A model generated the notes under the pieces. The model was not told where the DNA came from, did not search any database, and saw nothing but the letters and a program-made list of their open reading frames with translations. This document shows, one piece after another, positions 3,648 through 46,600 of a stretch of 64,000 nucleotides of DNA. The stretch lies in NCBI GenBank assembly GCA_903813345.2, contig CAIIXF020000001.1, positions 20,088,001 to 20,152,000 on the forward strand. Direction: 5' to 3'. The number at the start of each line of letters is the position of its first letter. The stretch's first letter is position 1. The position numbers and the translations under genes are program-made. This DNA is from Owenia fusiformis. Its lineage: Eukaryota.

Positions 3648-4486
3648 CTACAATCAAATTTTTTATTCTGTCAATCAGTTCATATGGTTAGAATAAGGAA
3701 AGAATGTGATGTAACCACGTGTCTACTTACTAGCTTGTTCTATGTCATCCATCGGACTAGGTTACATCGTGGAACGCAGCCAAACACGAGAATGAAGCCA
3801 GTATTCTGAGGTTATAAAATCTAAATCTAAATAATTTCCCATTTGCAGCCCCTTGGAGATTTCCGGAATTGAACCAAGTATCGAACGTTGCGATCTTTCA
3901 ACTTTAGTTCGTTGTTTTTTCACCACCTTATGTGTACTGTTTTCATTTAGGAGGCGGTCTTATTTGAATGCATCATTACAGGTCTTTATGAATCAATAGA
4001 TCAATAAACAGCTCTAAAAATACAATTTAGCAGTTTCTTTCATTGCGTACTGCGCATGTTAGGCACGAAAACAATTTAGCAGTTTCGTTCGTTGCGTAAT
4101 TGGGCCTTCTATAATCAAAAGCAAATACTCGGAAAACATTTTCCAAAATATTTACTTCCGATTTCCTTGAAGACATGATTGGGTGACACGTCATTGACAC
4201 GTGATTAAGTCACATGATCGATACAGTAACTAGTCACGTGATCAGACATGTGTCACGTGTCAGTCACGTGAGCTTGCAAAATGGACGATCTAAATTTCCA
4301 AAAATTCGGCTAAGATCAAGATAGATATGCTGTTGCCTTCAGCGTCCTGTTCGACTGCGTTCCACGATGTAACCTAGTCCGATGGATGACATAGAACAAG
4401 CCGGTAAGTAGACACGTGGTTACATCACATTCTTTCCTTATTCTAACCATATGAACTGATTGACAGAATAAAAAATTTGATTGTAG
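3648..4486. repeat. About 132-bp inverted duplication bracketing the promoter
   Basis: 3648-3779 is the near-exact reverse complement of 4355-4486. Confidence 0.9.
4045..4290. promoter_or_regulatory. Probable YME1L1 (possibly bidirectional) promoter with an E-box cluster
   Basis: CACGTG four times in 4198-4272 (three as GTCACGTG), GTCACATG near 4209, ETS-like ACTTCCG near 4154, NRF1-like TGCGCATG at 4051, YY1-like CAAAATGG near 4277; locally CpG-rich. Confidence 0.6.
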
Positions 4487-4921
4487 CGTATTCATGTAAA
4501 AAGTTTACTCCCATCCCTCAAAGAACCTTCTTACTCACGTGGTACTAACTCTCCGGGGCATATCGAAACCAAAATGCCCCGCAAAACCGTTAATTTGAAT
4601 TTCAAGTCTACCCTGTCTTGGAAAATCAATGATTGTGAGGCTCACACTATACCGTTTTTCTTCAAACTTGTTCTATTAAAACCTTCACAGAAATACCTTT
4701 CAGTCGAGACATTGCCTTTGTTTACAAAGTCCCTCGTTTTAGCGGCGTTTTGGTCCCCAGATGTGAGAAGATGCAAATCTTCAGAGATTTCAACTAAACG
4801 CCTCGATATATCGCCAGTTCTTTTATTATTCTCCCCTATATTTTGCTCAAGGACTCCCATTACAACCCTCCATCGCTGCATCAACATATTTATAACATTA
4901 TACGCAGCAATATAAAAAAGT

Positions 4922-5080
4922 CCTACGCAACTGTTCGATATTGACCAAAACGCCCCATTGTCTTCCAAAACGCCCCGCAGAGTCTATGACTACAGACGTG
5001 TATAGAGAAGGTATATAGATCCAACGGGGCGTTTTGGAAGAGAACGGGGCATTTTGATCAATTTCGAATAGATCCGTAGG
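4922..5080. repeat. Imperfect inverted repeat / small MITE-like hairpin
   Basis: Arms at about 4922-4977 and 5024-5080 (TTCCAAAACGCCCCG / CGGGGCGTTTTGGAA). Confidence 0.65.
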
Positions 5081-5094
5081 AAATTGAGTGAGTT

Positions 5095-5540
5095 AGTACC
5101 GCGTGTTACTCAGACCGTCTCAAAGTCCTAGACATGACAACACTGGCCTTCGGAAGACTCAGAGGTGACATGATAGAGACTTACCAATACATAAACAACC
5201 TTTATAATATAGACTCCAATTCACTTTTCCCTGGTTTACAACCACAGGACATACACCATACAAGAAGGTGCAATACACAATATCTCCGAAAGTCACATTG
5301 CAGTACAACCTTAAGACAGCAAACGTTTAGTCAGAGAGTTATAAAACAGTGGAACTAATACCAGAATGGGTAGTAAATGCACCAAGTGTAAATCAGTTCA
5401 AAAACAGATTAGACTCTCACTGGTACAATAACCCAATGAAATATGACCATACAGTGGACTACCACTTTATACACTGTTACTAACTAAATATGAACAAATT
5501 CAAAAGTATTGATCGGTTAAACAGGCAATTTATGCCTACT
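5095..5540 (+). mobile_element. CR1-type LINE 3' fragment
   Basis: ORF 5134-5358 reads RLRGDMIETY..FSQRVIKQWN, followed by PEWVVNAPSVNQFKNRLD. Confidence 0.8.
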
Positions 5541-5542
5541 TA

Positions 5543-6022
5543 GGGGCGGGGTCAAAATATCAATGTTCATATGGAGACGAAAGTAATTTCGTTTGGACAA
5601 CAACCCCCCCACCCCCCCTCTAGACGAAAGCTTAGGTCACTTCAAAAAAACATTGATTTATGAGAGGCATAATCGTATCCTATTTGCCGGGTTATTATTA
5701 GGGTGAATTAACACACGTTCGCAATTTAATTGCATTGAACTCTTCAAAAGGAGGAGGTAAAAGTACGGAATTTATTTGAAAAATGATCGAATTATCGTCT
5801 TTATCTACCGATATTTTGGACCTATCACACAAAAAAGCTCACAAACTATTGAAAACAAGCCTTTTTATCAGAACATAGCGCCAGAAAAAGTCCAAGTATT
5901 TTTTGTATATCAGATCCGAATTATCGATGTTTTTTTGGTCAACGAAAGTGCCCAAAAACCCCCTCCCCCCTCGCGAAAGTACTTTCGTCTCCATATGAAC
6001 ATCGATATTTTGACCCCGCCCC
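5543..6022. mobile_element. PIF/Harbinger-type MITE
   Basis: About 48-bp TIRs (GGGGCGGGGTCAAAATATC..ATGTTCATATGGAGACGAAAGTA) flanked by TTA at 5540-5542 and 6023-6025. Confidence 0.8.
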
Positions 6023-6324
6023 TTACCGTACTAACTTATAACTTATATAAAGATGGAATGATTGAAAGCAGTTTTCCTCTGTAGGGGGAAATGGTCATGA
6101 TTATCGCACGGTCCTAATTATCGCACAATTTTCCCAAATAGCCAAATCATGCACCCACCTCTTATAAACCAGTGTGTTTTAGGAGTAATTTATCTAAATC
6201 AGGTAATAATAAAAGGTGCATCAAGATCTATATGCAGCAGTGGTGAAATATGGTTGGAAGGATCAATACATGAAATATCAATGGGAGAAACTTCCGTATT
6301 TAAATTTTTCATCTTTGATTTCAG

Positions 6325-19608: not shown

Positions 19609-22600
19609 TCAATGTCTGAAGAAGTTGAATAATGAGTTCTTTTTGTTTGATGGCAGGGCCATTACCATTGGTACCTTGTTTTTATGTGTGATGGAAATCT
19701 AAAAACACAAAAATCGTAACTTATACAATACATGGGATTAACATATTTAAAGTTAGTATCAGATCTAGCGAACAACCTTAGAACTGTTTCATTTCTATGT
19801 TTGGCTCATATCATGCCTTGTCATGTCTATTTTCTAAAAATTCCAAAAGTGTGAACTTTATTTATATGTATGGGGAAATTTTAAACATTAATCCCCCCAT
19901 TTTTGCACTTTGAATCTCTCTCTCTCTCTCTTTGCACCAATCTATAAAATATTGTGGATCTTTTGGGAGATATTATATTTGAGATCATAGGGAATACATT
20001 AAGATCAATTGAATATGTTGATTGCAATTTAGCGTGGGATTCAGAGTGAAAATTACGACACTGTTAGGATACTAATGTTATTCAATGATTCAAGTGAAAT
20101 ACAGACTTTCTCAGGCAGAATATTTTCTATATTTCACTTGAATCAGGACTTTTGCTAGATATCTCACGGTTGTCTTATCTGATTAGCATTGCCATTGAAT
20201 ATCGCCAGATATCCCACGACATGTGACCCGGTTTTGACCAATCATACTGTCGCTAGCTAGATAGTGATATAATAATGAACAAATATTTCACTCTATTGAG
20301 GTGAATACCTGTACATCTTTCACAAGTGATATTCCACGAAGCCCGAAGGGCAAGTGGAATATCACCTTGTGAAAGTGCTACAGGTATTCACCGAAAATAG
20401 AGTGAAATATTTGTTTTATTATATCACCGTCTAGCTAAACATCCCTAATATTATTAAGTCATAGGTTAACATTGAAATACATTGAATCTACTCGGTTCGT
20501 CTGCCATTTTGACTTACACTGAACGAAAACAAATTCTTTGAAAATTCCCGGGAGCGTGGGATATCGCTAGATATCTCACGGTTGTCTTATCTGATTAGCA
20601 TTGCCATTGAATATCGCCAGATATCCCACGACATGTGACCCGGTTTTGACCAATCATACTGTCGCTAGCTAGATAGTGATATAATAACTTAAATTATTCT
20701 AAGTTCAATATAAATATCACACCAACACTTCATGTCACACCCTGTATACTTACAGTACATGGAGGCTGCATCCATGGTTCCCCATCTATTTGCATGGGCA
20801 ATCTTTTTCTGGTCCTGAAATGTTACAAAGTACTCCATGTATATGATTCAGAAAATCCTTTTTTGTTTCACTATAAGACACAATATGAATCGTGATTCAT
20901 GAAAATGAATTTATTTCAAGGTTAGAATATTCATATTAACCGCATTGTAAAACTATGCAATGACATGATTTATCAAAAGACTTCTTAAAAAACTACCACC
21001 AAACAAGATTGCTGAATGAATGAACTGCACAACATCTTTATCCTCATGTGTAGCACATGTGTGAATTAAAGAAAATAGATAAATGGTTTTTCGAGAATCG
21101 TGACGACAAAAAATTAGGATTTCAATAAAAATAAAGCCACCTATTTTCAAAGATAAACCTTTTTAGAAAGGCCCTGCCCACTTATATTGAGAATGATGTT
21201 TGTTTACCTGATTACAACTTGTGAACATTGTGCAAGCCTCTTCCCTGAGCTTCTCATTCCTGTCTTCACTTGGGCTGCATGCATTGCACTCTCCAGCCCC
21301 ACAACCTCTATCAACTGGTCACCAATATCTAAAAGAAAACAATCAATTGATCATCAATATCTAAAACAAGCCAATCAACTGGTCACCAATATCTAAAAGA
21401 AAACAAAGCAATCAATTGATCATCGGTATCTAAAACAAGCCAATCAACTGGTCACCAATATCTAAAAGAAAACAAAGCAATCAAGTGATCATCAGTATCT
21501 AAAACAAGCCAATCAACTCGTCATCAATAGCTAAAACAAATCTATCAACTGGTCATCAATATCTAAAACAAACAAATCAACAGGTCATCAACATCTTAAA
21601 CAAATCAATCAACTGGTTAATATATAAAACAAACATATCAACTGGCCATCAATATCTAAAACAAACCAATCAACTGGTCAATGCATAAAACAAACCAACA
21701 TGTATCAGATCTTTGTTTTATTTAGTGCAATAACTCAGATGCGAGTGGGTGGTTACCAGTTTCACCACCAGATGGCTCGTTGGGTCACATTCATTGTTGG
21801 TGTAGTAGTAAGTTCCCCCTAACTTAAATATTCATCTGTTAGTGGTTCAATTTTCAAATCACCCTTATGTATCTAATAGTTATGCAAATCAAAATATGTC
21901 CAGTAATAGAAAATGTTATCTGTCCAATTCAAGAAAATATATTTCACCTTTAGTGATTTTATAACATGGGGTCTATGAGGAATCTCCCCAAACTAGAAGT
22001 CAGATTTTCAAATAAATTAAATTTTCAAAGTTGATAAACAATTTTCGAAACCATATTTCAAGATGTATATTACTTTTACATGTACTCAAATATGTCATCA
22101 CTGTGACTGGATTTTGAATATTTAATGACATAAATCAAAATTATTGCTACTCGCAGTTAGTCTATTATCAATCATAAAATAAATAACAAAAAATATTTTC
22201 AAACTTGGAAAAATACATAATGTAATGAGGCCACTTTATTATATCAATCTGTAAGTAAAAACCTTTTTGTCCCTCTCAGTAAATAACCTACTTATTTCAA
22301 ATACATACCTTGTACTGCCATACTGAGATCAACTGATGACATGCTACTTGTGGAATATTCACGATCCTTGTCCTTTTTGGGTGATTTCTTATTCCTTTTT
22401 TTCTGGCTTGGGTTATCTCCCCAGAGATCTGTCCCACCATATATGCTAGGTATGTTTAGCAAGGCTATACCCTCTAATGTTGGACCATTGGCTAGATCTA
22501 GTGAATAGCCATCACACTGAAAAACAGAACACATAAAGAGTTTCCAAGTACTGAATGTGTATGATACTCTAATGACTGGATATGTACTTGATCTTGGGGT

Positions 22601-25600
22601 ATTAAGGTAGGAGTAGCATGTCTAGCATCCTTGAACATCTTACACATAGCAGGGCCTGGGGGGGGGGCAAAATCTCTGCAAAATCTCTCAAAATCATGCA
22701 GTTTTTCACCATTCTGAGCACTTTTCAAGTGGTTTTGGGCCAAAGTTGTCAAATAGTAAACCCCCCTGGAATTCTTTGAAAAGTGAACCCCTTGGTAAAA
22801 AGCTAGCTGCAGGCCTGCATACCAGCTTCCATACTTATGCTGACAAAATGGTTCAAAATCATCTCACTAGACCCACCTTAAGAATGTTAAGGAAGCAAGC
22901 CGTAGATTTAGTATTGTTCCTCTAATAATCTGTCAGGTCATTACGGTAATGCACCCCACATCAATTATTTCATTGTTTTAATTAAAAGGGTAACAAATTT
23001 AAGAAAGGAAATAAGAGTAACTTTCTAAAAATAAATTACAAAATCAAGTTTAATTTCTAGAAAGTCCAGATTTTTTTAATTTCAATGATAATCCTTTGAT
23101 CTGGCAATACTTTTGATTCCCATTATTTTCCATTTTTTCATTTTGAATTACTGTACAATGAACTACTTCCTTATATGCATATGCTAAATACGTTTGGGAA
23201 TATGCACTTACCATGATATCAATAGACTCGTGGATCTTTTTACAGGTTGCAGAAAATGTCTCTGAAGTTCCAAACTCAAAGTACCATAACTTATTCTTCA
23301 TTCTGGAAGTATATAGGATCATACATTCTACAATGTATGTAACATTGTACAATTATGCACTCAGCCATTCTTCATTATGCACTCATACATTCTTTAATAT
23401 GCACTCGGACATTCTTCATTATGCACTCATACATTCTTTAACATGCACTCGTACATTCTGAAATGTATCATCATACATTCTACAATATGTTGCCATATTT
23501 TTACAGTATGCACTCATAGTTATCAGCTATTTGAAGCGCATTTCCTCCCACTGAAAGACAGCATATGCTATGATGGGAAAATATGATGGTTTACACACTT
23601 CAGTTCATCTTACAAAGACATATTAATATAAAATCACTTTTTGGATAATATTAATATCTATTGTTCAACTAATTTTCATCATCTTCACATAGCAAGTGAC
23701 ACATAACATACCAAATAACTATTTTTCAAATTGCTGATAAACTATGTCTCCTTATTCAGTTAAAAGAATGCAGGAAAATAAAATAGAGCCTGAACAACAA
23801 AGAAAATCCAGTTGTTTCTAAATTGCAGATTTTCTTGTCATTATTGTTTTAAAAATAATTTTATGTGATGATATTCCCCCATGGCATCATTCATTGGTGA
23901 TTCCCCTTTCTGTTCATTGCTAAAAATACTACATTTTTCTGTATAGTGTTATATTTAACTCATTTATCATTGATGCATGTAGAAATATCATTGAGGACCA
24001 CAGTAATAGTAGTACAATATTATATATGGGAGATTTAGTAGGCAATTAATTCTTAGTGACACATGACATGTAATACCATTGTCAACAAGTAGTATTCATG
24101 ACAATTTGATGTGTTGTTCAGACTCTATATATTAAAATATACGCCAACGCACTTACACATAAAGATTTCACTGGATATTATAGACGAATAGTACAGGAGA
24201 TCAACTTGATTCCCTCCATTATTACAGAATGAGGTTCACCGTAAATATATTCATTTTTTTAGTAAAGACTGTTATATTTATAGCAGTTATTCTTCAGGTG
24301 ATGCCACTTAGACCTTTATCACTCCACAGGTATATAGTAATCCTGAGATCTTTATGTGAGTGTTGGTATAAACAATTTATTTTAATCCACAAGTAAATAG
24401 ATAGAATGCGCAGAAAGAGACTTCGCTGTCACAAACATGGCACGTCGCAGCGCCAGCAGGCTAGTTGGTTAATGAAATGTTTGGAGGTTAATGATGCTTT
24501 TCAGTTTTGAGATATCATTACAAGAGCAATGTTGGGCCCAAAACAACAACTCAATTTATTATGCACAATGGGATCATAATACCTTGTCATGGAAAGCTTT
24601 GGGTGGACAGGATGTTTATACATATAATAATAGGGTAGGGATCATGCTAGTGCTACATGCTATTTCCATCACCAAAATATATAGGTGCAATAAAATTGTG
24701 CATGTAGAAATAACTAAATACTAGGTGGAATTAATAAATATTGTGCATTGTACAATGTCAGTGTGGGACAAATAATCTAGTGCCATATCAGTAAGAAAAA
24801 TTAGTATTAAGGAAAACCATAAAATCTGGCACAGTCATGTGAGTAAAATTCAAATATCTAAACCTAATATCTAACTGGTGACTTGTGTGCAGTTATAACA
24901 CCTACAGTATGCTGTGTAGGATTTATGTTTTTGTAGTTTTAGTAATATCCAGTACCAAAATAAAGAGAATACATAAGTACATTTGGGGGAAATAAGTAAC
25001 AGGTACAAAATCAGAAGCTATGGTTGGTTGACTATAACAACAAGCAGAAGATACCAATCATGCAATCACATAACATGTCAACAAATATTGGCACAATTAC
25101 AAAATTTCACAAAAAAAACGTCACATCAATGAACATCTTTAAAACAATAAAAGCAAACACAGAGGATTAATCCCATTTGACATGTGATTAAAGTAGCGTG
25201 AAACTGGGGTACATCCTCTATGTACAATTTACAACTTGAAACATAGCTTTAAGGAAGGCAGGGCAGAATGACCAATTTACCTAATGAGATGTACTAATGT
25301 CATATGTGCAGGTCAAAATCATTTCACACTGCCCACCTTAATCTTCCCAAAATTAACCCAAAACACAACACAGTCAACCAACCATCGTGTCCATTGTCCT
25401 CCCAAGCTTTTACAATGACAAGGTTTTACAAGAACCCCCTACTCTACCTGCTATTGAATTTCTCGGGATGTTTTTCCCGCATCATATGAAACCTATGTGC
25501 GATGGACGCGTCCTGCAGAATAGAACACAATATCATAAATACAAAGAAATAAAAAACCCAGGGTGGACAGGCATTTTGTAAACATTTACATTGTAACACT

Positions 25601-28600
25601 GGATGGGAATAAGCATAGGTTTGCCACCTTAGAGAGGAATTTACAAAAGCAATTCTGTAACAGTTCTGCAAAGGTAGGATTTGAATGCACCGTGGAGCTG
25701 TTATTGCAAGGATAGCCTACAAAAAGAGCATGCACACAATTTTAAAGCTTTTTACAGGGCAAAATACAGGGTGTTTTAAAAATATAATATGCATGTTTGA
25801 TCTCATATTTTTAGAACGCTGCAAATTGGTAAAGGGTACGCATGCAAAGAGAAATTCTCCAATCTTAGTTGGAGAAATTCACATGTAAAAGAAGAAACAC
25901 AAATATTCCATCACCGACCATGATTGTAAAACATGTTGTCATCATAGCTTTGCTTTTAAGCCAAGTAATGATTATGTCTGCTATTTAAGACATTTACCAA
26001 AACAAGTATATTTTGATTTCAGTTACAATTTTCCAAACACAATTTTTACCCTTCCAAATGTAATTCTTAAAAAACATATTGATGTCAAACTGAAAGGTTA
26101 TTGAACATTTAAAATGGAGAAATCTGTGAATTACTAATCACCATCATGATGATTATCTGGAGAAGATTGTTTATTCTCATGGGGTTCCTGAAGCCCACAT
26201 TTATTCTTAGCAGTTAGGCCAATATACAGAGTGGGCCAATAAAAATTGGAATGTGGATCCAATGAGGATAAAAAAGTTATGACCTGTGATTTTATTGTAT
26301 ATGTAATTTCTCAATACATGTTTATTTACGAATGAAATTCATTCTCCAAAGTCTTTGTAATGTTCTCTGCTCCATATAATGTACAAGTAACACTCTCCTG
26401 GGGTGGAGATAAGAAAGCTGCACATGCATACAAGACACCAGCAACATAACGTCTCAGCATTCGAGAGCAACTAAGACAAAACATAGAATAAGGGGTGGAA
26501 TGAAAGCTTGACATAAATACTGGAGACCAAAATGCCTGTTCCTGGGTAAACACAAACCTGCTGTCAAATTTATGTGGATATTTTTCTCGCATCAAATGAA
26601 ATTTGTGGGCTATTGACGCATCCTGGAATAGACTTTGTATATTAGTAGAAATTAAGGTTAAAAACATGATGAATTTCTAATCCAACAAACTTTAACAATG
26701 ATTATATAACTGTTAATGATTTGGACTACATACTGTATTGTGAACATCCTCTCCATGTATCTTGACCCAACCCAAAAATAAACATATTGTGAAAAAATGA
26801 ACACCCTTTTCAAAAACATTTGGGAAATATTCACATTCAACTGAACTAAAATGAAAGTAACAGCTTACCACCCCAATAGAGAAATAATTATTGATAATGT
26901 TACAAGGAACTGGATCCCCTTGTTCTACAGTATCTGGCGTACTAAACTCTATCTGCCAGCGATCCAGCTGGACTTGGTTACCACTCTTTATTCTGTGTAA
27001 ATATTTGTTCAGATTTTCTCCCTCATAACCTGGAAAAACACAATTGTTTTCAAAAAAGACATTTACATACTTAATTTTTCTTTTTTACTCACATTTTACT
27101 TGATTACATATAGTGCATGTGGTATATCGCATATTAAATATTTTCAAAGGATGCAATGTTTGAAGGATACTTGAACAACATTTTTTAAATTGCCCTCTAT
27201 TATGTAAATGTACAAATTGCATGCTGGCTTTGACTGTTAACAGTATATCAATAACTATTGTTTAAAATGACACATGCTATACATCAAAGAAAAGTGAGCA
27301 CTGTTTAAAATCTAGATGCACATGTGGCAAATGTTTGAGCCGGATAAAATCCCCATGTTCAATAAAATGTCACACTTACAATACAATACAATAAATGGTG
27401 AAATGAATGTTATGTGGCTGTAAATATTTACCTCCTCCCCAGTTGAGACATCGTGCCAGGTCATTACCCGTCCCAAGAGGTAGAACTGCCACTGGCGGAC
27501 GATTTACAAAGGTCACCTTATCTACAACATAATATAAATACTATTTATTCATGTTCATTGAAGAGCATGAAAATGAATCCCTCCATTCTTGACAGAAACA
27601 GAATAGGTAATAATGATATAGAGCTGATAATAGAAATGTATACTATTATTACTTATGCACTGCATTGTTCTTTATACTATTGATTCCTTTCAAAGCATGT
27701 TTCACTGGCTTTTGGTTTGATCATATTCAACTGCGTAGTTTCTTGTGTTAAACAATATCAAGAAGCAGCAGGGGATATCTAACTGCATGCCTATTAATCC
27801 CCCGCCTACTTAAATTACCCCCTTTCTACTCACCCATGGCTTCAAGTAACCACCCGACTGTTCCATCTCCTCCGCAAACAAGAATTCGGAAATTTGGCAC
27901 GTCTTTGAAAAACTGCAACCTAAAAATGTTACACTGTGGATGCAGTTTGTGTTATATTTTCATATTTTCAATGTAATATAAAGCATGAGTCTGCATAGCT
28001 TATAACTTCATACAATAAGTTATACAATGTAGTAATACTTGTAAATTCAGTAATGACTGTCTATAAAGTGCACACCTCCCTATAAAGTGCAAACCTCCAG
28101 ACAGACCTGCTCATGTTAAAAACTGACCCCTATAACATTAGTGCCAATAAATTCTGAACAAAGTGTTCTCACTTCAAGAAATTCAATTTAAAAGAACCAG
28201 GATATTGTGATTTTTGAGATATGCTTTTGTCCATGTGTGAGTATCAATATCTATGCATACACAGTTGAGTTCATAAATTTACAGTGTACATACACTTGGA
28301 ACAATGTTTTTAATGTTGGCAGTCAATGTACTGTATATTTAAATGTGTTAATTCGGAATAAAGAAAGGAGAAAATGAAGGTTAAACATACGCTGGTTGAG
28401 GTCCTCCATTTTTGATCAGATCATAAACCTGCCTTGGGTTGAGTAAATACTGAAACTTTCTTAATATCCTGAAATAAAATGCAATCAAACTTGAACACAA
28501 TACGAATGTGTATTTTGTAACATAGTTGCTGCATAAAAAGTGGGCAAAAAGGTAGGTAGATGATCATTTGACATTTTCAAGACATACAAGTTAACCATTT

Positions 28601-31600
28601 ACATACAGCAAAAACTAACCATTATTAGCATATAATTTATTCACAATTGACTATTTTAATTGTGGGAAACTCGAAAGTGAGGGATAACGTACCTGGCACC
28701 TTGTTTCCCTCCACTCTTTGGGTTGATAAAGACGAGAAGAGGTGAGGTATCATTCATCGGGGTGATCTGAAATGAACTCTGGCCCTGTCAGGTGACGCAG
28801 AGGGAAGAAAGACAAAGAATAGCGGGTTAGTTACAAAGCAGTAAAGCACAGTCAGGTCAAAGGGCAAATCAAGGGTAAGAGGGGGGATACCCCAGAATCC
28901 ATAGATGACCCTCTTTCCATATAAAGATGAACTTTTAGGGGTTCATATACTAATTCTGAGGTATTCCCACCTCTTAATAAGGGTAATCTTATGTATGTCA
29001 TTTTCAAATATTAGAAAATCAACACAATCATTCAATGTACTTTTGTTATAAATAACAAAAAAAGTTGACTTTTAATATAAAAAATTTCATCCATTAAGAT
29101 ATGGTTACTTTTTACAAAAGGCAGAATTTCATGACAGAGATTCGTCACTTAATTATGATGTCAAAGACAGACCACTATTGTAACAGATTATATTATATTC
29201 TGATACTACTCTAGCATTGGTTAAATATTTGAGATCAAATTGTCATGTAGACCAATCATTGGATGTTAGAAGTGCTTTGATTAACCTGTCACGTGAAACA
29301 AACATGAAGATTCACGATAGAAACACTAAAAACCATACTCCGAGGAGTGCATTAAAACATTAGACAAAATTGATCAGAAAACATTTTAATAGGGAGAACA
29401 TGTATATGTTGGTCTCCATGACAATTATGCTTCTACATACTGGTCTTATAATAGTTATATATTAATATGTCTATCCCAACAACTTTACATTAGCACAGAT
29501 AAGCTTATTAATCTGACTGTATGAAATCCTGAAATTCAGTGCTTTGGAAAAACACTATCACAAATCGTATTTAAATGCGCATCTAAACTTATCTGTATTA
29601 ACCATTGTCTCCACCAAACTTATAACTATGAAAGCTAAAGTATCTATTTGTATTCCCATGTATTTCTTGTTATAATGTGAAATAGGCAGAATTGTGTATT
29701 AATTTTTTATTATTTCAAATAGGCATTGAGAAATTTATTTGGTGTTAGAAATCGAAAAGACAGAAAATGTGTATAGCTTCTTATTATCTCAATTTGACAC
29801 TGACAAATTTCAAGGAAAGAATTTGAAATCTCAGTGTAAAAAACTAAACAGTTAATCAAAAGTGCTTGAAATATTATCATCCCATAACCTAGGAAAAGCT
29901 CTTTAATAACACAGAATCAAAGGATTGTCTCTCACAAGCTTCTGTTAAATATAAGAACAAGAAACATTTAAATTTGAGTTAACAAATTCTTGAAAAGTTG
30001 AAAATGCCAAGAATACATTTTAACATGAAAAGCATATAGGTAAAGGTAAAATTGCTAGAACTTGCAAATATGCATCCTTATGGGAAACTGTAACTTTTGA
30101 AACCTTATATAAGTAAGAAAAATAGCCTGCACCTCATGCCCAAAGAAAGCACTAGATGCATATGCAATATTTAAAAATCTTATGTAATGTATGTGTCATG
30201 TAACTGATAGCTTTGTTTTTTTACAAATTTTAGAAAACCATTCATATGTAGAGCTGTAAAATTAATAACTAAAAATAAATAAATGTGACACAAAATCCCA
30301 AGATTTAATTACCTGCAGGCCGCCACTTCCAGAATTTTCACCCTCGTTACTTTTTTTACTAGAATTCATTGTGCTCTTACGTTCCTAAAAATAAAAATGA
30401 GGAATGATTTAAAAAATAGTCTGCACAACAATTGTATGAATATTAAAATTGTAAATGTAATATTTCTTGCGGTGAAACTTCTATTTGAACATGACTGTAT
30501 TCACGCCTTCTATAAACTGTAAACAAAGTCAACATTTCACCCAGGGTATATTCGGGAACAAAACCCCTGGTAATACTTGTAATGAGTGACGTTATAATGG
30601 AGGGCCATAGTAATGGCGGACCATAATGAATATCCGAAAAATGTTGGTGAGTTGTCATGTTCGAATCATAATATAGACCTCAGAGCAGGTGTAATATCGT
30701 CGAATACACCCCTTGGGCTAGGCACAAAAGTTTTTGAACCCCTCACTCCCTTCGGTCGTTTGGGGTACAGAAAACGTTTGTGCCTAGCTGCGGGGTGTAT
30801 TCGACAATATTACCCCTGCTCTTTGGTCTATATTTCTTAATTCATCTACTTGGTGCTTATGATCCATATGAGCTTATGTTTGTGTCTTTCCTGAAGTTGA
30901 CTATACCTGAGAGTGAAAAGACACTTGTTGATACAAATAACTATTATGTATTATTGTGGTACAGATTTCCGATATTTCCCCAACTATTGGTAAGAGTATT
31001 TTATAGATCCTACTGCCACCAGTAGAATCAGTTGACCTTATTGTGAAAAACTAGGGGGAGGGAGTATACTTACTAGGACAGCTGGACATATCGCATTGGG
31101 GGGAAGGATGTGATCTCTAAATTCACCAAAGTCACATTCAGGTTTTACTTGTGATGCACATTTATTGTGGAGCTGAAAAAAAGAAGTCAATAGAACACAA
31201 TTATATACATGTACATTGTCATTGTATACAAATCTGACTAGTATATGCCTTTTATTATCCCATGACATCAGTATTACAGAAAATAGAAATAGAAGCAGTG
31301 TTTTCAATTTTACTGGTTTTAAGGCGCTCACATAAATAATACCAGACTTCTCCTGTGTAGTACACAAACTTACATTTAGATGGCACCAGCGGCAATGAAG
31401 ACCAGTCACGCCATTGTAGGTTTTTATTGATTTTCTACATTTGTCACACTTGCCAGGGCTGTTCCCCTCAACCCAGTGATGCTGCATGTTCTGTAAGAAA
31501 ACATTATGTATAAATTCATGAATTTAAGAAATGTTAAAACATGCCAAATGGAAACCTTTTCACTTTTTAATATTCTTTATTTATGACTTCTTCAATATCT

Positions 31601-34600
31601 TTACAATAAAGCAGACATAATCATGGTCTCATGGTTATGCTTTAAATTCTGTTTGAGGACATTTTACATTTTTTCTTGTTGATCAGATGTATCATTACAT
31701 AGACATAGTATTCAATGGTAAGATTTGGAGTGTTTTTCTAACTATATGGTATAACACTATATAGTATAATAAAATATATAACATTATAATAATATAATAT
31801 AGTATAGTATAGTACAAGAAATAATGTTCCTTAATAAAGGACTTACATTTAAACCTTTCTTTGACTTTACATATGTGGTTATACAACAAGCAGGGGCTCT
31901 GTGGACACACCTCTCGTGTACTGTATATTTGCAAACTGAAAATAACACAATTTAGTAAACATACATACAGACGGATGGATGGATGCGCCTATGCCGACAA
32001 TAAGGCCCCACACTATGTGGTGGGGACATAACAAAAGGAGTAAGGCGTCTCTGATAAATCAGCATGATCTTCTCATCTATATGAATATTTTCAAGATCGA
32101 CAAAACCTCAGAAGAACTTATTTGTTTGACTTACATATGCAACTAAGGCCTTGTTTTCCTAGTCCCACTAGCATGTTAAGGCAGAGATTGCAGTAGGCAG
32201 GTTTGTTATAGTGTTTGAGACGCCAAGAGTGGGTCCCGTCATCTTTCACATTCTGAAGTATAGTGATTACTTAATAGTCTGGTTTATTATACTTATAGGT
32301 TAGAAGTTTAAGATATTGAAGTGTTTTACTTTAATTACAAAGAATATATATATAAGAAATGCTTCAAATAAAACAAATGAGTAAAATACACAATCTATCT
32401 TAATTTTATCAAATTTAACTTCATCACCTGGTAAGTTATTGTGAATGGTTACAAAAGTGTAACAATGTATTACAAACACCAAAAGCCAAATGTTATTTAC
32501 TGCCATTCATTATGAGACTGGTGGCTAAAACAAGGTCATTTCTTGGGTAAGGACAAATAGCTGCCCATGCCTATTGATAGTACATGTATAAGTTACATAT
32601 TAAAATATTTTAGAATTATTCAGGATGGGAATTACAGATGTTAAAGTTGTACATACTGTGTCTAGACCCAGTAGAACCAGGAGAGGTATTGTTGTAAGAC
32701 CTCCACGCTTCCATTCCTCCAGGGAAACAGTTCCATCTTCATCATAATCTATCTCACGCATCATGTCTTGTAATATCTGTAATAAGCTTATATGTTTCAA
32801 TAATGCCTTACACAATATTAGACAGCATTACATTCTTAGCAAAGCAATTATACTGGAGTCAGTCAAATTGATTCACATAATCCAACTAATAAACCGACAC
32901 TAGGCCAAACTTAAGGTTTGTTTACTCACAGGTTTAAGCTCGGAGACATCCCAACCAAGGTACTCTGCGACAGTCATCATTTGCTGCACAATACAATCCA
33001 GCTCCTAAACCATAATGCAACGCTCCTAATTAATATGGCATGACAAATAACATGCTATGACAATGATTATTACAGAGATAATCAATTAAAATCCAAGACT
33101 GAAGTGGTATAAACCTCTTCATTATTATATAAAGAATCGAGAGGATGTTTATCTAAGAAACACCTATTTTACGCATTTGAAACCTCTGAAATGTCCAAAT
33201 TGATGACAGGCATCAAAAACTGCATTATACAAGTATAAACTGGTTCTTAACATTAAAATTACAGTAGACTACAAATCAGGGAAGGCATCAAAAGACCAAT
33301 GTCTGATAGGAAAATAAATAAATCTAGTTTTGAGTTGGACCCCCCTCCCCAGCAAAACTAAATACAATGAAAGTTGATCGCGGACTTTTCACATGTTAAA
33401 CGACTCAATTTGGACTTTAATTGGGGCAGTACTATAACTTATTTATAATTCTTAAAACATGTGCCAACAACAACAGGCACAATATTCCATTGTTGCATGC
33501 ATCTTGGTGAAGAAGGCATCTGGTAAAGTCTTTATTTTTAAACCATTCCAAGGAATTTCCAGTCGAAATTGCAAAAAATTTAAATGTTGAAATTTGTCGG
33601 ATAGCAAACTGAAATAGCTTTGAACCCCTCCCCTCAAACTAGATTTATTTAGTTTTCTATCAGACATTGATCTTTTGATGCCTCCCCTTATAAAGGTACT
33701 TCTAATGGTACTTCTAGAAATATACAGAAATTATTCAAAAATAGAAATTCAACAAAAATAAAAACATTTTTCTTCACAACTATTCAAGTATATTGAGCCC
33801 ATATACCTTTCAAAGAGAACTATACCAATTCCAGAATGCTTTATCTACATCAATAATCTGCAAAAGGCTAATAAGCCCATTTAAAGCAGATATATTACAT
33901 TTGAGAATCAGATATTAAGCATGATGGGATTGGTTTGGGACCATTGCTACTTACACTACCCTCAAGTAGTAGATTGTCATCTGTATCATACAATCTAAAC
34001 ATGACTGAAAAACACATCAAAGAGAGGACAGTAAAATAAAGAGACAACCCAAAGGACAACATAAAATGAAAAATAAAATGAAGAAGAAACAAGTTGAATA
34101 CAAGAAAACAATACTTTGCAGCCCTCTCCACCCCACCAACTGAGTGACCAATCCAATACAGTGCATGTGCTGGACATGTACAGTAGAACCTGTATATCCG
34201 AACACCTTTCTAATCCAAACATCTCTCAACGTGAACACTTTATCTCATCTCCCATTGACTTACATATTGAGACACTTTGATATGTGAACACCTGCAAATG
34301 TGAACTTTTTTGGCCAGTCACAATGGTGTTCGGATTAGACAGGTTTTACTGTAATCACTGTAATAATTGGTGATTTAAACAGGTGTCATCAGTGGATGTA
34401 CATGTATTAGATACTTGTGCTGTTGAATTTAAAGGACTGCATTGCATCATGGGTACTACTGCACTATGGGATGGTTCTATCCTCCATTGAAAGGTGTGTT
34501 GCCTACTCTACAGAGAAAATAGTACGTAGGTTATAGTCATAAGCAAGTATCCATAACACAATACAAAGCCCCTTAGCAATTTCCTCGAATCAAGAAATAA

Positions 34601-37600
34601 CTAAAACAAGATCTAGCAAGACTCATTGTGACAGGAAATACGAATCATCAAAAGTAAAATTGAACATTTCGGACAAAATTGATTTTGGAAAGATTTATGG
34701 AGTCAAAGTGTGTGCTATGAATCACTAAAAATGGCTATAACCTTACATCTTCAGTCTCTTATTATACATCTATTGTCAGTTTTATCACAATTTCTGAGGT
34801 TGTTTAATCATACAAATGACACACCATCAGAAACACATAAAATGTTTCAATAAGAAAACTAAGATAAGTGACTAAATGCATGCAATATATAGAGTTCTGG
34901 ATCTCACATAACTACATACTATGGAGAAGTACTACAAAATAAAATGTATCTACCCACGCCATGCAATACTGAAAATGCTAGATACAAGTTATCTCAATTA
35001 ACAATAAGGTTGTTCCATTCATTTTGCTGTATTTAAAATGCATGGCTAGAGTATTTTAGTGAAAGGGGCAATATAATCATTGCCCTACCCTAACAAATAC
35101 ATGGAGATGGTACAAGGTCAGAGCAAGGAAAACGTTCCTGATATATCGAAATTAACCACTATTATTCAGAAAGACAGTGTTTCACTCAGTGTTTTTACTT
35201 GGGTAAAATTTTAGAGCTGTGGTTGTGAAAATGGATATGTTTATATACAAAATAGAATCTGTATTTAAACTTTATTTATGAGGGTAGTAACAAAAGCAAC
35301 ACCTACAAAAGACAACATCTAGGTATCTTTATTTGCATATTCATTGTTTATTTGGTTATCGATGCATTGCATTTAATGACTAATATACAAATAGAGAACA
35401 GTCAGAATGAAACTAGTTGTCACAATGTTACCATAGTGATAGCATTTGTCACCATGGTTACTTACATCTGTATCTAGAATACCGTTGCCATCGGCATCAT
35501 ATAATCTGAACATGACTACAATAGAAATGGAATACACAAAAGTTTTAACTCTCTTCAAATGCGTAAATAGTAAATCAAATGTTATATTGACTAAAATCTT
35601 ATGACTTTAATTGGTCAGTAATTCACACACACTTGTAAGCTGCACCTAGACTAAAATACATATACTCGTACATCCCAAACAATAATGATTTGGGGTCCCG
35701 GCATGTTGTAACGCTATAATTGATGATTCGAGTCCTTTCAATAATCTTCTATTGCATCCATGTTATCCTGGAATTGATAAGTTTGGGTCCAAAATGACCT
35801 GAAGTTGAAGACCTGCATATTGGTAATGAAAGCCCTTTCAGGAAAATGAGGAATGCATACATGTAAAGCATACAAAGTAATATAAATATGGTAACGAGAG
35901 TATAAAAAATCTTATCAAAACTATTCCAAATCTATGCACAAACATTGAATCAGTGATCTCCCCAACATTAACTTGAGAATTTTGAAAATAGGCTTGCACC
36001 CACTTGAAAACAAAAACATTTTCCCTTTTGCAAATGAGAAAATCATAAAAAATCTGTATACTTTGACCAATTTAGTATTAAACTGTATGAGAATTTTACA
36101 CTGATAAAACCCGTTGAGCACACTCCATCTAGGTTTTATATCAATTCAGACTTAATTCACATTTGACCACAAAAGATTAAATGTACTTTTACTTCTTAAT
36201 ATTCCTATATACAACATCCATTACTACTTACATTCTAATTTATCCTCTGGTCTCCCAGCCTCCAATAACGAGAGGTAACATACTAAATCCTTTAGATAGA
36301 TACTGCCATTTTTTATGTCTAAGCTATTCCGACGTTTTATATCATTGGTATTCAGTAGAGAAGACTTGGACTGGCGGATCCACGGATCACTGCTATCTAT
36401 AACACAGAAAATAAAATGAGTAAAAAACAAATCGATTTTACATGAGATGAAATTTTATTATCGATCAGTCAATATCAATGAAACATATACATGAGTTAGC
36501 AATAACAACATGACATATGAATAAAGTTATATATTTGATAAATGTTTATTTAAAAAATAACAATTTTTCACAATTATTTCTGCCAAAACATATAATTTAC
36601 AAATGTCCAACACAGACAATACAAAAACAGAAGCATATAATACATCATATCATACCAGCATACAACACGCTACACTTGCACCATACAGAACAAATTTGAT
36701 TCCAAATTGGAAATATTACGCATGTACCAGTACTGATAAATATATGTGCAGTAAAACGTGGATTAGTTAAAGGGCTTATAGCTGTTATTTTAATCCTAAA
36801 TAACCCAAAAATATTTTTAATTCATAATGATGTGTAACTTACACAATCGATAGACTTGGGATTAAACTAATTCTTCTTTGTAATTACTGAAGCTTGAAAA
36901 AAATCATTCATGTAGAAAGTGAATTAATTGTTCTTAATAACTTTAAAGGTGCAAGCAGTCCAATGTAGAAAGTGAATTAATTGTTCTTAATAACTTAAAA
37001 GGTGCGAGCAGTCCAATGTAGGAAGTGGATTAATTGTTCTTAACTTAAGGTGCAAGCAGTCCAATCTTGATCTAGTCATACTGGTGACTTGGTGAGGATT
37101 TTTCTCAAGCCTTGATATTTTCAAAAACTTTATGTTCAAGTCTATTGATTCTACAAGTATAAGTTACATATAATTCTGAATTCGAAATATTTCACAGTTA
37201 TACCATGGTCACATTTGCTCTGGTACTGGCACCCGACCGATGAGTATTTTGTTCAAAATTACATTCAGTTTTGAACAAAATACTCATCGACCTGGCTCCA
37301 GTGTTGAAGATAGGGGCAAATGTGACCACAGCATTATTTAGGCTGAAAGTTACATCTCTTATAGCCATTTAATAGCTGTTTGCAATTGCAGTTTCTATGA
37401 GATTGTTTCCCTGGGTATGAACCAGTCAATCTCACGGTCCTACCTACAATTTTCACTTGGATCATATGTGTATGTGTTGAATACACGTTTTACTGCAATA
37501 TATGACAGCCCCATGTGGCAGTACATTATATGTATTCTGAAATTCCTCATTTATAAGTATAAGCAATATGCAACTACAGTACATTAGTCATATACTACTC

Positions 37601-43600: not shown

Positions 43601-46600
43601 TTCATAGTCAATAGGCTGCAATAGAGAGAGTATTGGTTAGCTCATTGCAAGGGTAGTCTATTATATAACTGTTGTCTCATCATATACAAGTGCATAGAAA
43701 TCATATTGTCCTGTGATTCTTTAAAAGGGTGTATAACATTCATATTTGAGCACTTGTATTTAATACTGACATCAGACAGATACAAAGTTAGTGAAATCAT
43801 ATGAAAATGTCTACTATTTTCGCTTTAACTCAGACATGAGGTTTAGTATAATTTGCATGCAAGAAGGTCAAAGAAACAATAAAATACTAAGTTGGATTAC
43901 ATCAATGAGTTCAATTGAATTGAATATTTAAATAATGAACTGTCTAGTAACAAATAAGAATGAAATTAAAAATACTAATGATTCTATGCAAGCATATTAT
44001 GGATATTAGCCAAGCATGGACAAATTCAAGTTATTACACTTCATAAAATAAAATAATGCACTACTTCAAAGAAAAATAATTTTTGCAATTATATGTAACA
44101 CAACTTAATAACCAAATGTTGCATCTACAAAGTTCAATCTATGCAAAATATGTATCTTTATTTGTCATGGTGTAATGCAGATGGGGAGCCAAATGACAAA
44201 TGTTTTTCGTAATTGCAATCGAAAAAAGTGTAAAAATGTGTCGAAACAGTTGTTGGAAAACCAAGTGAGACAAATGTTATATGAAAACAATGTATAAATT
44301 TTTTTTTTATTAAATTATATGAAAGCTTCTTCCTTGTATGGGTCAATTGTGGCTATAGTACTACGGCCAAGGCGATTTGTGTCCAAAACACCTAGATTCA
44401 ATTTGACTTTAGATTCTTGTAGGGGACCCCAAGGCATGTAAAAAAATGTTTGTGAACCCTTGCAAAGCAGGCTCAAAAGTGCTGAGTCAGCAAATTTTAT
44501 CATTTTCGAGTCAGAATTTGACCATATGCTTGAAACTATTTAATATCTCATTTGAGGATGATGCAATTGTAATGAAACATTGTTAATATATCAATAAGGC
44601 ATGTATGAAGAATTCCTGAAAGTTTGGGTCTTATTCAACAAAATTTGGTAGAGATATGGGATAATTTGTCCCTAAAAGTACATAATTTCTCCTCAAAATG
44701 TCTTAATCAGTCGATAGTTAATCAGTCATTTAAAAAACAGTAAGGGCCTATGGTGTATAAAACCTGATTAAAAACTTCACTGATGATGTGAGCAAATATT
44801 TCTTGAATAAGTTTCAATAAAAAGTGCATGCATCTATTTTTTCTGATTTTTCTCTTTACCTTCCCCTAAAAATTCAAGAAAGGGGGCGTGGCACCTTACA
44901 CTTCAGTTGTTGAACTTTTTGCTAGGGTCAAATAGAAAATATGTATCATTATAGCAAAAAGTGTTATTCTAAATAAATCTTAACACTATATGTGACATCA
45001 TAATATGCTAAACATATTCATTATCTATCATTTTATTGAAACTTATTCAAGAAATATTTGCTAACATCATCAGTGAAGTTTTAAATCAGGTTTTATACAC
45101 CATATGCCCTTACTGTTTTTTAAACGACCGATTAACTATCGACTGATTAAGAAATTTTGAAGAGAAATTATGTACTTTTAGGGACAAATTATCCCATATC
45201 TCGACCATATTTTGTTGGTTAAGACCCAAACTTTCAGGAATTCTTCACACATGCCTTATTGATATAGTGACAATGTTTCATTATAATTGCAACATCCTGA
45301 AATGAGGTATTAAATAGTTTCAAGCATATAGTCAAATTCCGACTCAAAAATAATAAAATTTGCTGACTCAGCACTTTTGAGCCTGCTTTGCAAGGGTTCA
45401 CAAACTTTTTTTACATGCCTTGGGGTCCCCTACAAGAATCTAAAGTCAAATTGAATCTAGGTGTTTTGGACACAAATCGCCTTGGCCGTAGTACTACTAT
45501 GCATCAAACTGATATTGAAATTCAAAGATGAGGAATGAAGGATTCTAGAAAAAATAAGTCTCATATTGACATGTTTCAACCCATAAGAATCAAAATGAAA
45601 CCGTGCAACCATCTCTTTTAATTTTCATTTGATGGTATATAAAGATTTTAATAAGCAAAACAATATAAGTTGTGAGTCTTGTGAGAATGCCATCTCTGTG
45701 TTAAGTATTTATAATAGTGATATCCATGTGGTGTTTTGTTAAGTGACCATGTGGTGCGAGTGGTGCAATTCTAAAAGCAACACACAGGGTGAGGGTGGGC
45801 CAGAAAAAATAGAGTAAAAATAAACCCTATCACATTCAAATATTATACGAAAAATATATGTTTATTTTCTCATAGATTTTTAGTAATCATGATATTTATA
45901 AAACAGAAAGGAATTAAAATGAGATTGGATGGAGATAAGTACTGCAATTAGGGATGCCTATTATAGTGCTATCTGAACTGATTAAAGCATGTTTAAGTTC
46001 TCAAAACCTCAATACTCTACAAGCAGAGTGCCAGAATATTAAAAAAAGTTGATAGCTTTCCGCCAACCTGTCTTAAGGTAGGCCAAGGAGGATGCATTTT
46101 GAACTGATTGTGAATAAAGTCAGTATATAAGCCTATGAGGCCAAACATACCAAGCATTCTACTTGGTCTACCTTACATAAATGTGGTTATGTATAAGCCA
46201 GCTAGGATTGTGATGATGAGCTATATTTACGCCTTAACCAGTTCAGATAATCTGCACTAAATGACATTTGTTAAATGTTGACAATTACATTTTTGAAGTA
46301 AGTTCAAGTAAATTACACAGGAATTTATATTTGAATGTGGCAGGTATGTTATATTGTGAGAATTGCCACCACAGTGGGTCTTACTCTCTCCAAGACCTCC
46401 AAATCCTGAGACTGGAAAGGGAATAGGCCTCAGGATTAATTCATGCAAGACATAGGGATGTATAATGCACAATACATACAGACAATGGTTGGTTACTCAT
46501 TTCATGAGATCATTGTTACCATAGAAACAGCAACAAGATGTCATGACTTTACAAGCTTCAATAAAATTAACATGGTTTCATTAGAAAGTATGACATTGTA

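What the first reader, a model, noticed from the sequence alone, without database searches (positions are those of the whole stretch)
25556..26547. Long-range intronic duplex clamps the ~1-kb intron between the DGK catalytic MXEs
Seen (transcript sense): ACCCAGG-A-ACAGGCATTTTG begins 11 nt after exon A's donor (26547-26528). It pairs as 7 + 12 bp, with a small internal loop, to CAAAATGCCTGT-CCAC-CCTGGGT (25578-25556), which ends about 43 nt before exon B's acceptor. The downstream arm could instead pair through CTGTCCACC with GGTGGGCAG beyond exon B (25337-25329; 9 bp, one G-U). Several TGCATG motifs also occur in this intron (near 26423, 25841 and 25729). Inference: the duplex shrinks the effective intron to about 55 nt or masks the branch region, blocking A-to-B splicing.
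Basis: partly seen in the sequence, partly recalled or inferred. Interest (0 to 1): 0.72.

Follow-up and report, generated by a model that had tools for sequence, protein, structure and literature searches.

The report
Intron clamp between twin kinase exons
A marine worm's lipid-kinase gene has two copies of a 65-base exon that transcripts use one at a time, and the two ends of the 1-kb intron between them are complementary, so the RNA is predicted to fold into a stem that likely keeps the copies from being joined; this resembles known splicing stems and is untested.

Summary
The gene is the type I diacylglycerol kinase of Owenia fusiformis. Exons A and B (65 nt each) are an old tandem pair. 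One run's contigs show all four single-exon junctions and none joining A to B; two raw RNA runs show B only.

The 19-bp duplex is the intron's best helix. None of 2000 shuffles matches it at the intron ends, and none of 25 other intron spans of the gene comes close (z -8.6; next -3.4).

The proposed alternative pairing with GGTGGGCAG never forms in the folds, and the likely branch point lies outside the stem. A steric clamp (about 32 unpaired nt from donor to branch point) is plausible but unproven. A+B is frameshifted, so NMD alone could enforce exclusivity.

Covariation could not be tested: no second exon copy in 79 related loci.

New here: a hairpin on A's donor, a stronger stem set downstream of B sharing an 11-mer with the clamp's 3' arm, and a weaker crossing helix on B's donor. 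The scan noted similar intron duplexes at exon pairs in other genomes. Verdict: new member of a known kind (FGFR2, ATE1).

The parts
26869..27029 (-). Upstream exon U of type I DGK
   Evidence: 100% identical to Owenia fusiformis protein P0003; junctions to A and to B
26558..26622 (-). Exon A, 65 nt, not in the annotated protein; 5 of 21 full codons change the residue relative to B
   Evidence: Sequence and translation; U-A and A-D joints in run X6
26550..26575 (-). Predicted 11-bp hairpin covering exon A's donor; the donor has T at +3
   Evidence: p 0.95-1.00; -8.9 kcal/mol, strongest of 23 donors of the gene, next -8.1; only donor of 23 with a pyrimidine at +3
26528..26547 (-). 5' arm of the clamp (L1), intron bases +11 to +30
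26483..26496 (-). Element complementary to the first 14 nt of the intron after B (helix H8, 14 bp, crosses the clamp); tentative
   Evidence: 24 of 1000 shuffles; 2 of 61 real tiles including itself; p 0.85-0.89 only when L1 is blocked and the far arm is not yet made
26423..26428 (-). UGCAUG (Rbfox-type motif), about 130 nt after A
   Evidence: binding not tested
25841..25846 (-). UGCAUG, inside the clamp loop
   Evidence: binding not tested
25729..25734 (-). UGCAUG, inside the clamp loop
   Evidence: binding not tested
25556..25578 (-). 3' arm of the clamp (R1), intron bases -66 to -44
25532..25535 (-). Only TRAY motif before B's acceptor; candidate branch A at 25533 (-21), outside the stem
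   Evidence: inferred, not mapped
25448..25512 (-). Exon B, 65 nt, the annotated and ancestral-like copy
   Evidence: In P0003; U-B and B-D joints in X6, X21, X23
25390..25438 (-). 5' arm (L2) of the long stem H3 downstream of B
   Evidence: core -37.1 kcal/mol; p 0.80-0.96; 1 of 200 shuffles, whose stacking table had three wrong G-U values (score unchanged after the fix)
25369..25385 (-). 5' arm of 17-bp stem H4, nested in H3
25329..25337 (-). GGTGGGCAG; predicted to pair locally with 25261-25249, not with R1
25020..25036 (-). 3' arm of H4
24570..24612 (-). 3' arm (R2) of H3; shares the 11-mer CCTGTCCACCC with R1
   Evidence: The 11-mer occurs twice on the minus strand of the window; 24 of 5000 shuffles
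23212..23302 (-). Downstream exon D

Best explanation
Two tandem 65-nt copies of a DGK exon are used one at a time, and the complementary ends of the intron between them are predicted to form a stable 19-bp RNA stem that likely acts as a standing clamp against joining A to B.

Shown: the exon pair, the four single-exon junctions, the complementarity and its position.

Inferred: the 3' arm is transcribed 43 nt before B's acceptor, so the stem can close before that acceptor exists. It then holds A's donor about 32 unpaired nt from B's likely branch point, with a helix between them, too cramped for a spliceosome across A-B. A's donor can still reach D, and B's acceptor can still be reached from U. 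The stem need not switch: no alternative partner for its 3' arm forms in any fold. Together with the hairpin on A's weak donor it would tilt the default to B. Proteins, possibly Rbfox at the three UGCAUG in the loop, would promote A in some tissues. NMD would remove any A+B leak.
For: Junctions U-A 913, U-B 1031.5, A-D 636, B-D 1097.9 (contig depth) in X6; no A-B or U-D joint listed in any of 4 runs.

The helix scores -22.2 (z -8.6, 0 of 200 shuffles) against -5.0 to -12.2 (z no lower than -3.4) for 25 other intron spans of the gene, including the intron between its EF-hand exon pair. The 40 distinct orthologous downstream introns score -6.7 to -14.9. Pair probability is 0.96-1.00 at every transcript length folded.

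A donor-to-branch distance under 50 nt is the published steric criterion (PMC5740500, passages).

The duplication is old (8 synonymous, 5 non-synonymous codon differences) and the introns align no better than shuffles, yet the arms are perfectly Watson-Crick.
Against: No conservation or covariation could be tested: 0 of 79 related loci have a second exon copy and no relative's genome is held.

Polymorphism is uninformative: 0 of 27 listed intron substitutions fall in the arms (P about 0.32 by chance), and 45 substitutions and 23 indels were not shown.

The missing A-B joint is expected from NMD alone (stop inside B), and contigs drop rare forms. In C. elegans 14 of 19 non-3n clusters rely at least partly on NMD and the minimum intron is about 40 nt (PMC4165533, passages). 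Rotifer-like loci here have 50-61-nt introns, so 53 nt is not clearly too short.

Stems that approximate sites often promote splicing (Nmnat, PMC2724269, passages). The branch point is unmapped. Exon A use rests on one run's contigs, with joint sides of 25-28 letters at 88% likeness.
Confidence: 0.45

Rival explanations
1. The stem is functional but sets the A:B ratio rather than exclusivity, as in FGFR2 IAS2/ISAR, SCN9A ISRE1/2 or ATE1 R2R5. It would weaken A's donor or bring elements next to a splice site, while NMD removes A+B.
For: 65-nt exons make A+B and double skipping frameshifted. In FGFR2 a stem collaborates to activate IIIb and repress IIIc, with GCAUG/Fox sites (PMC2471395, passages). 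In SCN9A blocking the stem changes the ratio without loss of exclusivity (PMC12772994, passages). A:B varies between runs: about 37-47% A in X6; no A joint listed against 24 and 16 B-junction reads in X21 and X23. The stem starts 3 nt after the donor hairpin.
Against: The three UGCAUG lie inside the loop, so the stem does not bring them nearer a splice site. The arms sit at both extreme ends, which fits a clamp better than a bridge. In SCN genes NMD inhibition barely broke exclusivity, so NMD is not always sufficient.
Confidence: 0.25
2. The complementarity is a neutral relic, either the decayed ends of an old inverted-repeat element or chance, and exclusivity comes from splice-site competition plus NMD.
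For: All 19 pairs are Watson-Crick, so it is equally a DNA inverted repeat. 10 of 61 real tiles hold a helix as strong, mostly transposon-like. The finding was selected from a large scan. No conservation evidence exists.
Against: The end-to-end geometry is met by only one other of 1698 sliding pairs and by none of 25 other intron spans. No other 11-mer of the 3' arm occurs in 64 kb except its partner and R2. DNA contig depth over both arms is near single-copy level (74-79), unlike the 1087 spike at 26186-26317, and no loose ends are listed there, with 4 rows not shown.
Confidence: 0.2
3. The stem is one state of a structural switch. In the B state the clamp and H3 form. In the A state a crossing helix (26496-26483 with the first 14 nt after B) hides B's donor, or the 3' arm pairs beyond B and loops it out, as in a docking/selector system.
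For: With L1 blocked and the transcript ending before R2, the crossing helix forms at 0.85-0.89; 24 of 1000 shuffles. R1 and R2 share an 11-mer that includes the CCAC bulged out of the clamp but paired in H3.
Against: R1 pairing with either element beyond B has p 0.00 in every fold that includes it, is 11-12 kcal/mol weaker than the clamp, and is matched by 205 of 2000 shuffles. The crossing helix falls to 0.02 once R2 is made, was found post hoc, and is unremarkable region-wide (21 of 60 shuffles). The folding model cannot represent pseudoknots.
Confidence: 0.1

Closest known systems
FGFR2 exons IIIb/IIIc, IAS2-ISAR stem with Fox/GCAUG elements (PMC2471395, PMC2777236, PMC12772994: passages; primary papers seen only as titles in reference lists, one requested and not held)
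   Same: A duplicated exon pair whose double inclusion can trigger NMD, one non-competing long-range intronic stem, and (U)GCAUG motifs nearby. That both FGFR2 arms lie in the intron between the exons is recalled, not read.
   Different: The FGFR2 stem is reported to activate the upstream exon and is conserved from sea urchin to human. Here the arms abut both intron ends, the folds suggest repression of the upstream donor, the UGCAUG are inside the loop, and no conservation is shown.
Human ATE1 exons 7a/7b, R1R3/R3R4 and R2R5 (PMC7797038: parts 1-4 of 7 read)
   Same: A pairing between an inter-exon element (R3) and one just upstream of the second exon (R4), and a separate long-range stem reaching into the downstream intron.
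   Different: In ATE1 two similar selectors compete for R3 and overlap splice sites/polypyrimidine tracts, and this was proven by mutation. Here the 3' arm stops short of the pyrimidine tract, no competing partner forms in the folds, and the exons are not 3n.
Steric-interference MXEs, donor to branch point under 50 nt (PMC5740500 and PMC4165533: passages)
   Same: The proposed block is the same: too little room between donor and branch point.
   Different: There the distance is short in the primary sequence. Here it is about 1025 nt and would be made short only by folding.
Drosophila srp exons 4.1/4.2, bidirectional pairing (PMC4691838: outline and first quarter of Results); duplication model of Ivanov and Pervouchine (PMC6071210: parts 1 and 3 of 5)
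   Same: An exon pair born by tandem duplication with long-range intronic stems; two crossing stems are possible here too (clamp and H8).
   Different: The srp stems each loop out one exon; the clamp loops out none. The parts of the model read duplicate one arm of a stem, whereas here both arms may have been copied with the exon (inferred from one 11-mer).

Membership tests
Tandem-duplicated mutually exclusive exon pair | Homologous exons of equal length and phase with intact splice sites | tested here: met
   65 nt each, 77% identical over 70 nt, AG/GT borders
Tandem-duplicated mutually exclusive exon pair | Each exon spliced to both flanks; no double inclusion or skipping in mRNA | tested here: met
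   All four joints in X6 contigs; B only in X21 and X23; no A-B or U-D joint listed in 4 of 4 runs. A rests on one run and rare forms can be missed.
NMD-enforced MXE | Double inclusion or skipping creates a premature stop | tested here: met
NMD-enforced MXE | A+B accumulates when NMD is blocked | not testable with these tools
   needs an experiment
RNA-structure-controlled MXE (FGFR2/ATE1 type) | Long-range intronic complementarity beyond chance | tested here: met
RNA-structure-controlled MXE (FGFR2/ATE1 type) | Arms conserved with compensatory changes | not testable with these tools
   No relative with both exons found: 0 of 79 loci; no genome held; polymorphism inconclusive
RNA-structure-controlled MXE (FGFR2/ATE1 type) | Disruptive and compensatory mutations change and restore splicing | not testable with these tools
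   needs a minigene
Docking-site/selector competing pairing (Dscam1, ATE1 R1R3/R3R4) | One docking site with two or more partners of comparable strength | tested here: not met
   R1's alternatives are -18.3 and -19.1 against -30.4 kcal/mol, p 0.00, 205 of 2000 shuffles; L1 with R2 only -10.6
Bidirectional pairing (srp) | Two stems that each loop out one exon | tested here: inconclusive
   Best helix looping out A 2 of 60 shuffles, long and interrupted; best looping out B 21 of 60 region-wide, 24 of 1000 when anchored on B's donor
Steric-interference MXE | Donor to branch point under 50 nt in primary sequence | tested here: not met
   Intron is 1045 nt; candidate branch A at -21. About 32 unpaired nt only if the stem forms.
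U2/U12 incompatibility | A U12-type donor on one of the introns | tested here: not met
   Donors read GTAAGC, GTTTGT, GTAGAG; none fits the U12 consensus as recalled

The most novel reading that the evidence does not exclude
Steric mutual exclusion made by folding. An ancestral intronic hairpin just after the exon was duplicated whole with the exon. The first copy now clamps a 1-kb intron to a sub-spliceable size, with no competing structure needed, and the second copy became the stem set downstream of B. This would be a route by which exon duplication yields exclusivity at once, different from the one-arm docking/selector model. I found no such case in two literature searches aimed at it and one broader one.
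Probability: 0.2. Interest if true: 0.68.

Novelty: new member of a known kind. Interest (0 to 1): 0.42.

Why it matters
Known structure-controlled exon pairs come mostly from arthropods and vertebrates in the papers seen. This would be an annelid case with a simple, testable design: one stem, two exons.

If the stem works by shortening the donor-to-branch distance, it joins two mechanisms usually listed apart, steric interference and RNA structure. It also suggests a search rule: helices linking the extreme ends of inter-exon introns.

Separately, it adds an unannotated DGK isoform that changes five residues at the start of the accessory subdomain. Three of the five also occur in marsupial DGK gamma, so the A form is probably still an enzyme.

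Tried and rejected
Own-genome search: no genome held, so there was no genome-wide intron control and no repeat census.

Metagenome scan for an A-like exon: 0 matches. Relaxed scan: 79 loci, none with a second copy. 59 of 79 lack the upstream intron altogether, and some contigs end before a flanking exon.

Protein searches and isoform sets (read out in 23, 29) gave no A-like isoform in oysters, mussels, chiton, brachiopod, nemerteans, other annelids, echinoderms, hemichordate or amphioxus. This is weak evidence, since Owenia's own annotation lacks A.

No RNA holder was on record; raw RNA runs came as same-species additions.

My first idea, that R1 pairs with GGGAGGACA after B, was rejected: p 0.00.

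Pairing of the starts of exons A and B (p 1.0 in folds) was set aside: it comes from self-complementary Asp-Ala-Ser codons common in single-copy orthologues.

Intron-to-intron homology: the global alignment is no better than shuffles (68 of 100), and the best local match is the R1/R2 segment but 44 of 200 shuffles equal it on a flat score. Only the post hoc 11-mer test is significant.

Rfam gave one match far below its gathering score. No solved structure of a eukaryotic accessory domain was matched.

One search had three wrong G-U stacking values; it was fixed and the A-B tests rerun.

Literature: searches listed no paper on this exon pair (listings only). DGKA/B/G were not found in the 3 supplement files held for PMC5740500; files not held may list them.
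Full report
Gene and exons. The peptide of the exon at 27029-26869 is 100% identical to a type I diacylglycerol kinase of Owenia fusiformis (P0003), and that protein maps across 48926-19612 on the minus strand. Two 65-nt exons, A (26622-26558) and B (25512-25448), encode the same 22 residues at the start of the accessory subdomain. The annotation uses B. They differ at 13 of 21 full codons, 8 synonymous and 5 not, so the duplication is old and A has kept its frame.

Use in RNA. Four runs were laid on 23150-27100. X6, kept as contigs and only guessed to be RNA, shows U-A (depth 913), U-B (1031.5), A-D (636) and B-D (1097.9), all at GT-AG borders, against intron depths mostly of 25-75. Raw RNA runs X21 and X23 show only B (9 and 15 junction reads; 8 and 8). 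No A-B or U-D joint is listed in any run. So both exons are used, apparently in a sample-dependent ratio. A rests on one run, with joint sides of 25-28 letters. A+B and double skipping both hit early stops, so the missing A-B joint cannot separate a splicing block from NMD.

The duplex. There are 19 Watson-Crick pairs around a 1x4 loop, -30.4 kcal/mol. The helix is in the MFE and centroid folds and has probability 0.96-1.00 in folds of 1.2 to 2.2 kb.

Chance tests. I wrote a local helix scanner with ViennaRNA stacking energies, simplified loop terms and a length penalty (corrected). The duplex is the best helix of the intron; 2 of 300 shuffles reach it anywhere and 0 of 2000 in the end-to-end geometry. 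Strong helices are not rare in this DNA: 10 of 61 real tiles have one, mostly long inverted repeats. The geometry is rare: 2 of 1698 sliding pairs, one being the duplex itself. Of 26 intron spans of the gene scored the same way (a 153-nt intron was skipped), A-B has z -8.6 and the other 25 have z of -3.4 or higher. That includes the intron between the gene's EF-hand exon pair. Forty distinct orthologous downstream introns show nothing similar.

What the stem does and does not cover. It leaves 10 nt after the donor and 43 nt before the acceptor unpaired. The only TRAY motif in B's last 80 nt puts a candidate branch A at -21, outside the stem, so masking is unlikely and the folded donor-to-branch distance is about 32 nt plus a helix. 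The published steric criterion is under 50 nt (PMC5740500, passages). Against this, C. elegans splices introns down to about 40 nt (PMC4165533, passages), and rotifer-like loci here have 50-61-nt introns; the shortest intron of this gene is 153 nt. A's donor is the only one of 23 with a pyrimidine at +3 and lies in the strongest donor hairpin of the 23 (-8.9, next -8.1).

Competing pairings. They are matched by 205 of 2000 shuffles and have probability 0.00 even when the 5' arm is blocked. GGTGGGCAG folds locally instead. One alternative appears when the clamp is blocked: 26496-26483 pairs over 14 bp with the first 14 nt after B, covering B's donor (0.85-0.89), until the far arm R2 is made (0.02). 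Its support is modest and post hoc (24 of 1000).

A second stem set after B. The intron after B carries a longer stem H3 (25438-25390 with 24612-24570), a nested 17-bp stem H4, further hairpins, and a 17-bp stem at 24128-24112/23799-23783. R2 shares the 11-mer CCTGTCCACCC with R1. In 64 kb no other 11-mer of R1 occurs except its partner arm, and 24 of 5000 shuffles contain one. The introns are otherwise unalignable. The simplest history is that exon, 5' arm and 3' arm were duplicated as one block of about 1 kb, leaving the first 3' arm just before B's acceptor. This is inference from one short match.

This intron is also less variable: 6 substitutions in 2063 nt in X6, against 32 in 1143 nt for the contigs over the A-B intron; 10 in 1964 against 36 in 1337 in X2. 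Linked sites make formal P values meaningless, and shared haplotypes could explain it.

Conservation. No genome is held. A scan for A-like exons found nothing. A relaxed scan gave 79 loci, none with two copies, 59 lacking the upstream intron. Isoform sets from other spiralians and deuterostomes show one version of this exon per gene. The pair looks restricted to the Owenia lineage among what was sampled, so covariation is untested. Within the species, 0 of 27 listed intron substitutions hit the arms, which chance gives about a third of the time, and many rows were not shown.

UGCAUG. Three copies lie in the loop, a mild excess (98 of 5000 shuffles). By the Fox-family rule (downstream sites enhance, upstream sites repress; PMC2777236, passages) they would favour A over B, as in FGFR2. 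No binding evidence.

Mechanism. Best reading (0.45): a standing clamp that forms before B's acceptor emerges, blocks A-to-B joining and tilts the default to B, with NMD as backstop. Rivals: ratio control only (0.25), neutral relic (0.2), structural switch (0.1). Taken together the stem has about a four in five chance of doing something, on position and strength alone.

Comparison. It works like FGFR2 IAS2/ISAR (one stem, Fox motifs, non-3n exons) and like ATE1 R3R4 (a pairing before the second exon plus a downstream module). It fails the docking/selector test and does not meet the primary-sequence steric criterion. Searches found no paper on this exon pair (listings only) and none on a stem that enforces exclusivity by shortening the intervening intron (listings, plus passages of four listed papers). 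Most subscription papers and PDF supplements were not visible. Earlier AI notes of this scan report other exon pairs in this genome and intron duplexes at exon pairs in other genomes; they are leads, not support.

Verdict. A real feature and a new member of a known kind, interest 0.42. The folding-made steric block is the bold reading (0.2; 0.68 if true).

Noticed in passing
window 23303-25447 (-): The intron after exon B holds several strong stems (H3, H4, 25223-25205/25175-25157, 24128-24112/23799-23783) and shows 5-10 times fewer substitutions than the A-B intron in two runs; possibly a constrained structured intron, or shared haplotypes.
   Followed up: partly
window 35466-35515 and 33955-34004 (-): Second duplicated exon pair in the same gene (EF-hand). 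Its intervening 1461-nt intron has no end-to-end helix (z -0.3) and two TGCATG.
   Followed up: partly
window 21330-21690 (-): Tandem degenerate copies of the acceptor and first codons of the exon at 21328 (repeats of ttttag-atattggtgaccag type), giving many look-alike acceptors upstream of the real one.
   Followed up: no
window 26186-26317: DNA contig depth spike (1087 against 20-90) with loose ends at 26217-26300: probably a polymorphic repeat insertion inside the clamp loop.
   Followed up: no
window 26323-26557 (-): Exon A's reading frame stays open for roughly 75 codons into the intron (read by eye); single-base insertions at 26447 and 26458 in two runs suggest chance.
   Followed up: partly
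proteins P0242-P0261: Marsupial DGK gamma carries K, L and Y at three of the five positions where exon A differs from B, in all listed isoforms that have this segment; likely convergence.
   Followed up: partly
window 44415-45437, 3699-4435, 4921-6023, 30670-30834, 33278-33688, 20253-20438: Long inverted repeats, probably MITE or other transposon ends. Around 20160-20700 a stretch of about 130 nt is also repeated directly.
   Followed up: no
window 23342-23489: 22-bp minisatellite, about 5 copies, 40-190 nt upstream of exon D; contains one TGCATG.
   Followed up: no
protein P0066: The Lottia gigantea DGK model carries the upstream exon U peptide twice in tandem: a duplicated exon or an assembly artefact.
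   Followed up: no
L001-L079: 59 of 79 orthologous loci have lost the intron before this exon while keeping the one after it.
   Followed up: no
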